A stretch of DNA of 56,961 bases, filler included, from Spironucleus salmonicida (Eukaryota), in the NCBI RefSeq assembly GCF_000497125.1. It is 4 parts of 4 records of this genome, joined end to end, with 100 filler letters (N's around TTAATTAATTAA, not from the genome) between each part and the next. Parts side by side here need not be neighbours in the genome. Positions count along the whole stretch, not along the records: positions 1 to 17,330 come from NW_027150731.1; 3 more parts are not named here. One strand, 5' to 3'. Below, in pieces: positions 14,539 to 17,055 of this stretch. The notes beneath the pieces were generated by a model. The model was not told the DNA's origin and searched no databases. It saw only the letters and a list, made by a program, of their open reading frames with translations. Made by a program: the position numbers and the translations under genes. Numbering within the stretch: position 1 is the first letter of the stretch; every line of letters begins with the position of its first letter.

Positions 14539-15309
14539 ATGAGGTTATTAGTTAGAATCAATTAAAAGGGCATATTGGTAGCGGAGGCAAAACGAAGGAC
14601 AGTAACCTCCTATTGGGCTACTGATCCCTAAGAGTACCATGGTTAATCGTAACTAAACCCTGGTAATGATAATCTATCTGAAATGTTCATCTTTTAAAAG
14701 TTATGTAATTTATAAAGTTCAATATTGACATACTATATAAATATTACTTATTATAAAATTTTAACAGATTTTAGAAATGATAAAGTACCATTGCAAATAA
14801 TAAACTCTAAATATTTTAAATTGGTTTATTAAGATTCACATCATCGTATCAATAATTAATAGCACATCCTTCCTGAAGTTGAATATAAGATGTTTTATGA
14901 ATAGTTTAAATTAGCATTCGATGAGTATACTATTGATCCAACAGTAAAAAAATTAAATTTGAATACATGTTTCAGTTATTAAACAAAGATATATTTGGAG
15001 ATTACAAAAACAACAGTAATTATTAAAAGAAATCTTATAAGCAAAATTAATTCAGCTAAGTTCTTTAGACACTTAAATACAGTTTATATAAAATCAAATT
15101 AATGTGATGAAACCATTAGTATCTTAATATATAAAAGTTTAATGCTGTAGCCTTTGAATCGATATATATTTGTTTGGAAAGATATGACTAACAGAACTAA
15201 TTAAATATCATTTAATATTTTAAATTAAACTGATAGTAAAAGAGTTGCATCTCAGGCAGAAGTTTAACAAGAATCAGTTTATATCTTTTGTAGATTCTTG
15301 TTAAAGTGA
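14539..15309 (+). CDS. Hypothetical protein (~256 aa), possibly a minor capsid (penton)-like protein
   Basis: The frame is open with TAR=Gln and ends in AAGTGA; alternative ATGs lie at 14452 and 14683. The C-terminus (TVYIKSNQCD...LQPLNRYIF...NQISFNILNQ...VYIFCRF) recalls the beta-strand pattern of Polinton minor capsid proteins. It lies next to the packaging ATPase. Confidence 0.45.
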
Positions 15310-15352
15310 TTAATACATATAATTTAAGTTATTTTGTTATTCAATTAAATAT

Positions 15353-16418
15353 ATGGAGTACAATATACAATCAGACGAAATTCAATTTTTGATATAAAAA
15401 ACAAAAAAATACTCGGACGCAACTGTCCGGACCCCAGGAGGTCTAAATTGAAATAATGGTTATGGTTATTTTGGACTTATGGGTTCAGCAGGAACAGTCA
15501 AAACGTATTCAATGAATAAAATAAATTAAGCGTATTAGATTAAAGTAAACTATCAAAGTATAATTCAGATGACCCTCATTTAAATAATAAGATATAACTC
15601 ATACGTTCTTCTTAAGTCCGACTATAGGTTGTGATTATACTTATTAGAAATCAAAAACCAAAGATAATAGAATTAATATACCATTTGTTGATTCGAACGG
15701 AAGGACATCAAAATAAAAGTTATTAATGTTATGCCAAGAATTATAGAAAATGAAAACCATTATAAATCTATCATTGATAACATAAGATTAGATACGAACT
15801 ACTTTAAAAGATAAAGAAATTAAAAAATGGAGATCAAAAACTATTCTTTCAAGTTTTTAAAAACATACTTTCACAATTCGAGTGGCTAAAGCAATAGTAT
15901 TAAGAATGTTTAGTTTTATAGAAAGATTGTTTAGGTGATGATGTTGATTAGTATATGTAATTGCTGTATGAATAAATTGGATTGCGCTATAATAAATATT
16001 GACACGAAATTAAAATAGTTTTATTATTAGATGACATGAGTGGAAGTTCATTATTTCAAATTACAACTGAATCTGATTTCTATAAACTAATTATTTAAAG
16101 AAGATATCTTGGAATTTGGGCAACCATTTCATGTTTACATTCTATTAAGATACTGTATGGACCTTTTAGATAGTTGTTTACAGCTTTCTTGTTAATGAAC
16201 GGTCTCAAGGAAGAACATATAAAAGATATCTTTAAGGATATTGGAAGGATAACAAGTTAAGAATTCGAATAGAAATAGTTTATTGAATTGTATAATAGAT
16301 CATTGATTATTTTGGAAACGACTATTCGAAGAGAGGCTAATTCAAATATAGTTTTTTATATATAATTATTTAACCAGACCCAATGATCTTTATAAACTTT
16401 GATAAGCAAGTTAAGTGA
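15353..16418 (+). pseudogene. A32-like (FtsK/HerA superfamily) viral DNA packaging ATPase pseudogene
   Basis: Motifs occur in the expected order across shifted frames: degenerate Walker A GLMGSAGTVKT (15473-15505), FFLSPTIGCD (from 15606), Walker B IVLLLDD (16015-16035), IQRRYLGIW (around 16100), FRQLFTAFLL, FIELYNRS, and KYSFLYI...IFINFDKQVK* ending in AAGTGA. There are several frameshifts and in-frame TGAs. Confidence 0.75.
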
Positions 16419-16477
16419 ATATCTGTTAATTTTTATCTATATTTAAAAGATAGTACCTTCATTTTTTAACCAAAGAA

Positions 16478-17055
16478 ATGGTGAAGTTCATAAACGCAAA
16501 ACTGCTGATTGAAGAAAAAGAGATGACCTAGCTTTCATCGAATTAGTAATAAATAATGAACTCATAAAGATAAATAAGAAAGCTAGTACTAAATAGAAAT
16601 TTGAAAGTAATAACGTATGTAGCAAAGTTGAATAAATAAGATTGCTTAATAAAGATAGAGAAGTAATAGTTGTACTACCTTAAGAACTTGAACAATAGAA
16701 CTATTATATACTCCTGATGTACTTAGCACTAAGCAAGACTATAGCAAGTTTTAATAATTAATAAGATTGAAACATATCATTTGGCTCATACTATAAACAA
16801 ATCTAATATTTATTAACTAAAGATGAAGTGAAAACTATTTAAAATATTTAACCAGCTTCAAGAGAACTATATTTCTGATTCAAAAGGATCCAAACAAAAG
16901 ATCAAGTTCAGGAAAAATAGGAGTAGCCAGGGTTTAGAAAATCATTCTGGCGAAATTTTCTGTTACTGAAAATTGAGTTCGTCACCTCGGAATCTATTAA
17001 GTTAAACAATAAATCAAAGAAAAGAATTCTAATGACATTAGAAGACAGCGAATGA
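16478..17055 (+). pseudogene. Disrupted ORF remnant downstream of the ATPase
   Basis: Coding-like stretches (MVKFINAKLLIEEKE..., SFGSYYKQIQYLLTKDEVK..., ...RILMTLEDSE*) are broken by TGA and frame changes. Confidence 0.35.

What the first reader, a model, noticed from the sequence alone, without database searches (positions are those of the whole stretch)
14539..17055. The virus-like cassette appears adapted to the host's non-standard code and 3' signal
Seen: both virus-like ORFs contain many in-frame TAA/TAG codons within otherwise coherent protein stretches. Both end in AAGTGA (15309 and 16418), the stop-overlapping motif used by host genes in this window. Inference: the element used TAR=Gln and the host 3'-end signal before it decayed. 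That would imply a DNA virus or self-synthesising transposon resident in hexamitid diplomonads rather than recently acquired foreign DNA.
Basis: partly seen in the sequence, partly recalled or inferred. Interest (0 to 1): 0.75.

Follow-up and report, generated by a model that had tools for sequence, protein, structure and literature searches.

The report
Host-coded Polinton-like relic near telomere
This is a broken, many-times-copied piece of a Polinton-like mobile DNA element whose family already read TAA and TAG as glutamine, like its fish-parasite host, while it was still under selection, which shows long residence in such hosts, a situation already reported once in another protist group.

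Summary
The code claim holds; the 3'-signal claim is only partly supported. The stretch is a subtelomeric fragment (orphan ORF1, a frameshifted packaging-type ATPase, the start of a third gene) of a Polinton-like family with about 15 ATPase copies in this code-6 diplomonad genome. Interior copies carry a protein-primed polymerase; one lies between 1.9-kb inverted repeats ending AGTAGT...ACTACT. A separate 17.7-kb inverted-repeat element holds an unbroken paralogous ATPase (28 TAR, no TGA). Diverged polymerase families show purifying selection with 86 TAR but 1 TGA in phase, and TAR behaves as a Gln synonym. Both AAGTGA ends exist, but the host signal is AGTGA, found at about 31% of long-ORF ends and 3 of 11 element gene ends. 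ORF1 has no outside homologue; no capsid or integrase gene was found. Code-6 endogenous viral elements are published for Streblomastix, and this scan noted a code-6 viral element elsewhere in this genome (e1-7142348). New member of a known kind.

The parts
1..3334 (.). Telomeric (CCTA)n array; the cassette lies about 11 kb inward (context)
14539..15309 (+). ORF1, 256 aa in code 6 (285 aa from ATG 14452); real coding frame, function unknown; a capsid role is only a guess from position and beta-rich look
   Evidence: 16 TAR, 0 internal TGA; against a 75%-identical copy 31 of 109 changed codons synonymous in this phase versus 29 of 215 in the other two, p=0.001; no outside homologue; fold uninformative
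15304..15309 (+). AAGTGA at ORF1 stop (contains host AGTGA)
   Evidence: AAGTGA in 10 of 13 copies, AGGTGA in 3; out of phase with the upstream frame in the 2 diverged copies
15353..16418 (+). Frameshifted P-loop ATPase of packaging (A32/FtsK-like) type: Walker A remnant near 15482-15505, Walker B LLLDD near 16021-16035, RR-x-LG motif near 16099. Frame breaks lie near 15430-15455, 15536, 15587, 16000-16010 and 16300
   Evidence: 314 codons align at 34% identity to the unbroken 326-aa paralogue P0007; P0007 matches virophage packaging ATPases by HHalign, probability 84%, E 8e-6, N-terminal 57 columns only; motif names recalled
16413..16418 (+). AAGTGA at the homologous ATPase stop
16478..16899 (+). 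5' part of a third element gene (ORF3), frameshifted and cut off at about 16899, where similarity to interior copies ends
   Evidence: family under purifying selection in code 6; about 15 loci in the genome

Best explanation
The stretch is a dead fragment of a Polinton-like element family that has long lived in code-6 diplomonad hosts. Shown: the family's genes (pPolB, ATPase, ORF3, ORF1) diverged under purifying selection while carrying in-frame TAA/TAG as Gln codons and using TGA as the only stop. Shown: interior relatives have the layout inverted repeat - pPolB - ATPase - ORF3 - inverted repeat. Inferred: the element replicated its linear DNA by protein priming from the terminal repeats, was transcribed and translated by the host nuclear and cytoplasmic machinery (hence the code), and encoded a packaging motor, so an ancestor probably formed virions or was packaged by a helper. 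Inferred: one ORF1-ATPase-ORF3 copy was caught in a subtelomeric block and spread to many chromosome ends by segmental duplication, not by new insertions, decaying meanwhile. Some element genes probably used the host's stop-overlapping AGTGA poly(A) signal (about even odds for these two ends).
For: About 15 ATPase copies, 10 of them 94-96% identical and mostly near contig ends, 3 interior at 89-92%. Interior copies have a polymerase directly upstream: PHROG DNA polymerase E 2.9e-11; the 12 of 16 phage hits listed lie in small Clostridium phages and PRD-type phages, 11 annotated DNA polymerase, E 0.01-0.07 (that these are protein-primed is recalled). G000:C2:1089601-1100632 has 1864-bp inverted repeats, 99.2% identical, ending AGTAGT...ACTACT, the commonest Maverick end motif (PMC8097293). 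G000:C4:933397-951101 has 1263-bp repeats, 99.92% identical, and an unbroken 326-aa ATPase with 28 TAR, 12 CAR, no TGA; simulated decay of a standard-code gene gave this in 0 of 1500 runs at each of four divergences. pPolB families A and B (67% nt): 907 codon pairs, mismatches 289/225/419 at positions 1/2/3, 86 TAR and 1 TGA in phase versus 26 and 83 TGA off phase; 35 of 86 TAR face a Gln codon (background 7%), next Lys, Glu, Asn, Ser; first-position C/T exchange 7 of 26 in the xAR box versus 5 of 64 in xAY (p=0.02), 8 of 28 versus 3 of 66 in a second pair (p=0.002), 10 of 26 versus 1 of 30 in a fourth (p=0.001). ORF3: 323 pairs, 49/39/81, 27 TAR, 1 TGA versus 11 and 26. Window ATPase: 21 of 23 in-phase TAR also TAR in an interior copy; no in-phase TGA in the window copy, 0-3 per copy. 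ORF1 simulation: P(16 or more TAR and no TGA) at most 0.007 even at 30% divergence.
Against: Window ATPase against the unbroken paralogue: only 4 of 18 TAR face Gln (background 12%, p=0.18); three interior copies gave p=0.06-0.18. One polymerase pair of four was not significant for xAR versus xAY (7 of 25 versus 5 of 34, p=0.18); the four pairs share sequences and ancestry, and phase was chosen from mismatch periodicity, so the 3>1>2 pattern is partly by construction (the stop counts are not). In ORF1, 4 of 24 TAR face Tyr. One TGA column is shared by 7 of 15 ATPase copies. Pfam Pox_A32 and DNA_pol_B_2 reach no cut-off in the genome. No rve integrase, tyrosine recombinase or double-jelly-roll hit; no target-site duplication at the C2 element. 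No relative outside the species was found to test the code externally. 8 of 11 element gene ends lack AGTGA.
Confidence: 0.82

Rival explanations
1. Recently acquired standard-code viral DNA whose TAA/TAG codons are nonsense mutations from decay.
For: TAR density in ORF1 (6%) is no higher than in its off-frames; window-only alignment test not significant; copies are mostly broken.
Against: TGA is excluded from the coding phase while TAR is not (1 versus 86); unbroken paralogue with 28 TAR; simulations; TAR shared across lineages that diverged under selection.
Confidence: 0.02
2. ORF1 is not an element gene: a host or unrelated orphan joined to the ATPase by subtelomeric recombination, so only the ATPase and ORF3 are virus-like.
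For: No homologue among 1.84 billion representatives except this species' own proteins; interior copies have pPolB in its place and similarity starts at the ATPase ATG; no match to virophage penton or major capsid profiles (HHalign probability under 1%); absent from the two inverted-repeat elements examined.
Against: Two ORF1 lineages 75% apart both sit directly upstream of the ATPase; all 13 copies aligned adjoin ATPase sequence; same low GC.
Confidence: 0.2
3. The two AAGTGA ends are coincidence (Lys codon then the only stop), not a selected poly(A) signal. This rival concerns the 3' claim only.
For: 8 of 11 element gene ends lack AGTGA; the paralogous ATPase ends GTGTGA; ORF1's end is out of phase in its diverged copies; even long host-like ORFs have AGTGA in only 26 of 84; the motif was picked after seeing it.
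Against: Background is 3.4% of TGA in element DNA and 6.4% of element codons; element ends give 3 of 11 AGTGA (p=0.03), 5 of 11 [A/T]GTGA (p=0.004), 7 of 11 with G before TGA (p=0.0002), close to the host-like rates of 31%, 36%, 38%.
Confidence: 0.4
4. Part of the apparent decay is assembly error in a small repetitive contig, and some copies are in fact whole.
For: Many single-base gaps are private to one copy (L003 and L005 have many).
Against: Several breaks are shared by most subtelomeric copies, and in-phase TGA occur in 12 of 15 copies; window-versus-interior differences are nearly neutral (19/26/29, 15/19/27, 19/26/37).
Confidence: 0.1

Closest known systems
Endogenous Polinton-like/Maverick viral elements of the oxymonad Streblomastix strix (Bellas et al. 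2023, PMC10120064; passages and supplement rows seen)
   Same: Integrated elements in a metamonad that use the host's TAA/TAG=Gln table, read there as long-term association.
   Different: Those were defined by major capsid genes (820 detected); the S. salmonicida row of that table has an empty MCP cell and I found no capsid gene. Different host lineage (diplomonad).
Mavericks/Polintons (Barreat and Katzourakis 2021, PMC8097293; passages seen)
   Same: pPolB followed by packaging ATPase and a third gene in one module; long terminal inverted repeats; 5'-(AGT)2//(ACT)2-3' ends; most copies degraded.
   Different: No retroviral-type integrase, protease (not searched), capsid genes or 6-bp target duplication found; code 6.
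Capsid-less Trichomonas vaginalis polintons and Hexamita inflata PolB hits (PMC11296320; passage and one supplement row seen)
   Same: Polinton-type PolB in metamonads, one clade without detected capsid genes; Hexamita inflata proteins listed as PolB hits, so such polymerases in hexamitids are already hinted at.
   Different: Spironucleus has 0 occurrences in that supplement; no element structure or code analysis was seen there; relationship to the polymerases here not tested.
PLVs/virophages with SF3 helicase-primase replication (bioRxiv 10.1101/2024.03.18.585575; passages seen)
   Same: The C4 element pairs the paralogous ATPase with a D5-like primase-helicase (PHROG E 3e-10) instead of pPolB, the kind of module swap described there.
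   Different: No capsid gene recognised; not the window's own layout.

Membership tests
Maverick/Polinton | Protein-primed family B DNA polymerase | tested here: met
   In interior relatives, not in the window: PHROG E 2.9e-11; weak hits to small-phage polymerases; matches to virophage-type polymerases fetched by the same motif are circular; Pfam DNA_pol_B_2 below cut-off.
Maverick/Polinton | A32/FtsK-type packaging ATPase | tested here: inconclusive
   Walker A/B and R-H motifs by eye (recalled); HHalign 84%, E 8e-6 over 57 columns against five virophage ATPases, ten shuffles under 0.5%; HMM of the same five and Pfam Pox_A32 found nothing significant; model pLDDT 37.
Maverick/Polinton | Long terminal inverted repeats | tested here: met
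   1864 bp, 99.2% around an interior copy; 1263 bp, 99.92% at the C4 element. The window copy is cut off and has none.
Maverick/Polinton | (AGT)2//(ACT)2 or (AG)3//(CT)3 end motif | tested here: met
   C2 element ends AGTAGT...ACTACT; the C4 element does not.
Maverick/Polinton | 6-bp target-site duplication | tested here: not met
   C2 element flanks differ. At C4 the outermost 6 bases on each side are the self-complementary ATATAT, which may be a duplication or part of the repeat.
Maverick/Polinton | Retroviral-type integrase | tested here: not met
   PF00665: no match in G000, control rang in 7 of 14 genomes; PF00589 also none. In-frame TAR and frameshifts lower sensitivity.
Maverick/Polinton | Adenovirus-type maturation protease | not tested
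   No search run.
Maverick/Polinton and PLV | Double-jelly-roll major capsid protein | tested here: inconclusive
   PF21738 no match but control rang nowhere; virophage MCP profile no match in 7872 six-frame peptides of fetched DNA.
Maverick/Polinton and PLV | Single-jelly-roll minor capsid protein (ORF1?) | tested here: inconclusive
   No match to five virophage pentons; single-sequence model pLDDT 30; no PLV-type penton set was at hand.
Streblomastix-type code-6 endogenous elements | Genes written in the host's TAA/TAG=Gln code | tested here: met
Streblomastix-type code-6 endogenous elements | Metamonada-group major capsid protein | not testable with these tools
   No stored sequence of that group was available as a query; the published screen lists none for this species.

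The most novel reading that the evidence does not exclude
Spironucleus harbours an undescribed, code-6-locked lineage of small linear dsDNA viruses whose capsid proteins (ORF1 among them) are too diverged to recognise and which integrate without a recognisable integrase; at least one member (the 17.7-kb element with 99.9%-identical ends and an unbroken packaging ATPase) inserted very recently, so free virions or linear episomes may still circulate in fish-gut diplomonads, the first DNA virus lineage of diplomonads to my recall.
Probability: 0.2. Interest if true: 0.75.

Novelty: new member of a known kind. Interest (0 to 1): 0.45.

Why it matters
It extends code-adapted Polinton-like elements from an oxymonad to a diplomonad that a capsid-based screen scored blank, shows at least three diverged polymerase lineages plus a helicase-type element sharing one ATPase family, and gives a clean internal proof that an element evolved under the host's reassigned code. 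Such a code ties the element to TAR=Gln hosts and hides it from standard-code gene calling. The window copy itself is a dead subtelomeric relic, the principle is published, and the scan has already noted a code-6 viral element in this genome, so interest is moderate.

Tried and rejected
Pfam on 36 window frames: nothing for the 8 cassette pieces. Outside homologues: ORF1 in 1.84 billion representatives, 1 hit, the species' own protein; P0007 and its profile among 526 and 2164 candidates, only this species' proteins and one unnamed entry; polymerase among 589 candidates, none; one search timed out; IMG/VR and JGI scans with ATPase, polymerase and helicase queries, none confirmed; PDB sequences none significant; phage tblastn with the ATPase none. 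These word-based scans back-translate Gln as CAR and see only close relatives, so they do not show absence. AlphaFold models were unusable (pLDDT 30 and 37) and the fold search on the second meaningless. Expression: no RNA holder listed; contigs of three runs guessed to be RNA, one study, cover parts of the ATPase at low depth and resemble the interior copies; ORF1 has no cover, which is no evidence either way. Rejected on inspection: reading TGA 15449 as a TAA-to-TGA nonsense change; it lies off phase. Rejected: a first blastp-based codon tally, because alignments ran through frameshifts. ORF3 versus a 204-aa C4 protein: 23% identity, E 0.016, only a hint. Literature: 'Spironucleus + Polinton', 'diplomonad + Maverick', 'Hexamita + polinton' and 'polinton + codon reassignment + glutamine' gave no description of these elements in the listings; term searches in PMC3916229, PMC9509377 and PMC11787283 (passages only) found no 'viral' in any, and no 'Maverick' or 'Polinton' in the last. 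Subscription papers, Repbase and bioRxiv supplements were not searchable; one Bellas supplement file was cut when stored.

Full report
Setting. The window joins several small contigs of G000 (14.5 Mb, 42 contigs). The finding lies in C28, which starts with a (CCTA)n array to position 3334. Host genes in the window (HSP90, aldose epimerase, transporters) read through in code 6. Public proteins that match the cassette are named Spironucleus salmonicida.

Observation. ORF1 (14539-15309) has 16 TAR, 3 CAR and no internal TGA. Its off-frames have more TAR (19, 24) but also 5 and 12 TGA, so only the lack of TGA is beyond chance (shuffle P=0.006). The second gene (15353-16418) is spread over three frames with at least four shifts. 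Both AAGTGA are there. The one at 16418 is the homologous stop (13 of 15 copies, the other two cut short; same distance from the last shared motif as in the unbroken paralogue), although the window's Walker-B frame stops at 16386. ORF1 is open in 2 of 13 copies.

Anatomy from other copies. A DNA search gave 30 matches; ten further copies at 94-96% lie mostly near contig ends or on small contigs, three at 89-92% lie inside chromosomes and begin at the ATPase start. The interior copies carry, in place of ORF1, a family B polymerase (PHROG E 2.9e-11; weak hits to polymerases of small Clostridium phages and PRD-type phages). By eye it has a Cys/His pair and exonuclease motifs where Polinton polymerases have vOTU and exonuclease domains (domain order from bioRxiv 10.1101/2024.03.18.585575, passages; motif reading recalled, not tested). 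One copy (C2:1089601-1100632) lies between 1864-bp inverted repeats, 99.2% identical, ending AGTAGT...ACTACT, the commonest Maverick end (PMC8097293, passages), without a target duplication. At least three polymerase lineages, about 65-67% identical, are present. A different element (C4:933397-951101, about 22% GC, 1263-bp repeats 99.92% identical) holds an unbroken 326-aa paralogue of the ATPase (34% identity over 314 codons) with a D5-like primase-helicase and other genes. That ATPase matches five virophage packaging ATPases from IMG/VR by HHalign (84%, E 8e-6, N-terminal part only; shuffles under 0.5%), but neither their HMM nor Pfam Pox_A32 finds it. A third gene starts at 16478 and is cut off near 16899. 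No integrase, recombinase or capsid gene was found.

Was TAR read as Gln before decay? Controlled tests decide it. (a) Polymerase families A and B, phase chosen per gap-free block from mismatch periodicity and blind to stops (8 of 9 blocks used): 907 codon pairs, mismatches 289/225/419, 86 TAR and 1 TGA in phase against 26 and 83 TGA off phase; 35 of 86 TAR face Gln codons, then Lys, Glu, Asn, Ser; TAA/TAG exchange (4 of 14) is like AAA/AAG (18 of 46); first-position C/T exchange is commoner in the xAR box than in the His/Tyr box in 3 of 4 pairs (p=0.02, 0.002, 0.001; the fourth 0.18). The pairs are not independent. (b) ORF3: 323 pairs (3 of 4 blocks), 49/39/81, 27 TAR and 1 TGA against 11 and 26. 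(c) ORF1 against a 75%-identical copy: 31 of 109 changed codons synonymous in its phase, 29 of 215 in the others (p=0.001); TAR faces TAR 14 times, Tyr 4, Lys 2, CAR 1 of 24. (d) Window ATPase: 21 of 23 in-phase TAR are also TAR in an interior copy, while in-phase TGA number 0-3 per copy and are mostly private, one column being shared by 7 of 15. (e) Simulated decay of a standard-code gene with the copies' own substitution spectrum never gave 28 TAR without TGA in 326 codons (0 of 1500 at each of 5-30% divergence), and gave ORF1's pattern in at most 0.7%. The family therefore evolved under code 6.

The 3' signal. The published signal is AGTGA overlapping the stop (PMC3916229, passage). Six of 15 window ORFs that I picked end so, none in AAGTGA; 26 of 84 long ORFs in fetched DNA do (a rough proxy that includes some element and off-frame ORFs); background is 3-6%. 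Of 11 element gene ends that I chose, 3 are AGTGA (p=0.03), 5 [A/T]GTGA (p=0.004) and 7 have G before TGA (p=0.0002, after correcting one index), near host rates. This fits use of the host signal but is post hoc, several ends are tentative, and ORF1's end is out of phase in its two diverged copies. About even odds.

How it most likely works. An element with terminal repeats replicated by protein priming, was expressed by the host machinery and so adopted its code, and encoded a packaging motor (inferred). Lineages recombined: the same ATPase follows pPolB in some copies and ORF1 in others. One ORF1-ATPase-ORF3 piece entered a subtelomeric block and spread with it; differences between window and interior copies are nearly neutral, so most of that spread followed inactivation. 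Whether virions were made is open. ORF1 is a real gene of unknown function; a minor capsid role is a guess that my tests neither support nor exclude.

Comparison and novelty. It works like a Polinton, but fails or leaves open the integrase, target-duplication and capsid tests, so I do not file it as a Maverick. Code-6 endogenous elements are published for Streblomastix strix, in a screen whose S. salmonicida row has an empty capsid count (PMC10120064). Hexamita inflata proteins appear as PolB hits in a supplement (PMC11296320), and an ochre tRNA in a virophage was read as a hint of host reassignment (PMC6905037, passage). My searches found no description for Spironucleus. This scan earlier noted a code-6 viral element on another piece of this genome (e1-7142348). 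Its length, 14,238 letters, equals the span from the first to the last gene that I listed in the C4 element, but look-ups by sequence returned nothing, and I could not reproduce its claim of environmental relatives. Verdict: code claim supported, 3' claim partly, new member of a known kind, interest 0.45.

Noticed in passing
G000:C4:933397-951101 (L050-L052): 17.7-kb low-GC element with 1263-bp inverted repeats (99.92%), unbroken code-6 ATPase, D5-like primase-helicase, SNF2-like helicase pieces, a FEN/XPG-like frame (motifs by eye), fibre-like repeat proteins, a long AT microsatellite, and possible ATATAT target duplication.
   Followed up: partly
G000:C2:631k, 692k, 753k, 900k; C5:964-968k; C2:184-187k; C6:1046-1065k: Several further polymerase copies in at least three lineages, often inside large segmental duplications; at C6 a 5-kb inverted duplication (99%) of the polymerase; one frame is TGA-free for 1021 codons.
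   Followed up: partly
window 4111-9315 (-): 1734-aa orphan ORF next to the telomere, no Pfam hit; earlier scan notes describe a chromosome-end NTPase-like family in this genome.
   Followed up: no
window 9800-12960: Degenerate tandem repeat array of roughly 350-base units upstream of the cassette.
   Followed up: no
window 17468-18514 (+) and 20758-21894 (-): Two identical aldose 1-epimerase genes in inverted orientation around a 543-aa gene, followed by a sugar transporter and HSP90; GC-rich and nearly free of TAR.
   Followed up: no
window 33626-41380 (+): 2584-aa ORF made mostly of an 11-residue repeat (EERAALLNLPE type).
   Followed up: no
window 17331-17430, 28066-28165, 46589-46688: N-padded spacers between contigs; ORFs that cross them are artefacts.
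   Followed up: yes
G000:C4:4080-5777 (L055) and its duplicate near C2:1846k: 565-aa FAD-dependent dehydrogenase-like ORF of bacterial look with only 8 TAR, in a subtelomeric block 99% duplicated between C4 and C2; name from recall, not searched.
   Followed up: no
G000:C2:484561-485385 (L072): A 120-base piece matching the 5' end of ORF1 (83%) lies about 500 bases from a 72% match to the element terminus.
   Followed up: no
window 13000-13515 and 17112-17318: Contigs from runs guessed to be RNA cover these flanks at much greater depth than the cassette.
   Followed up: no
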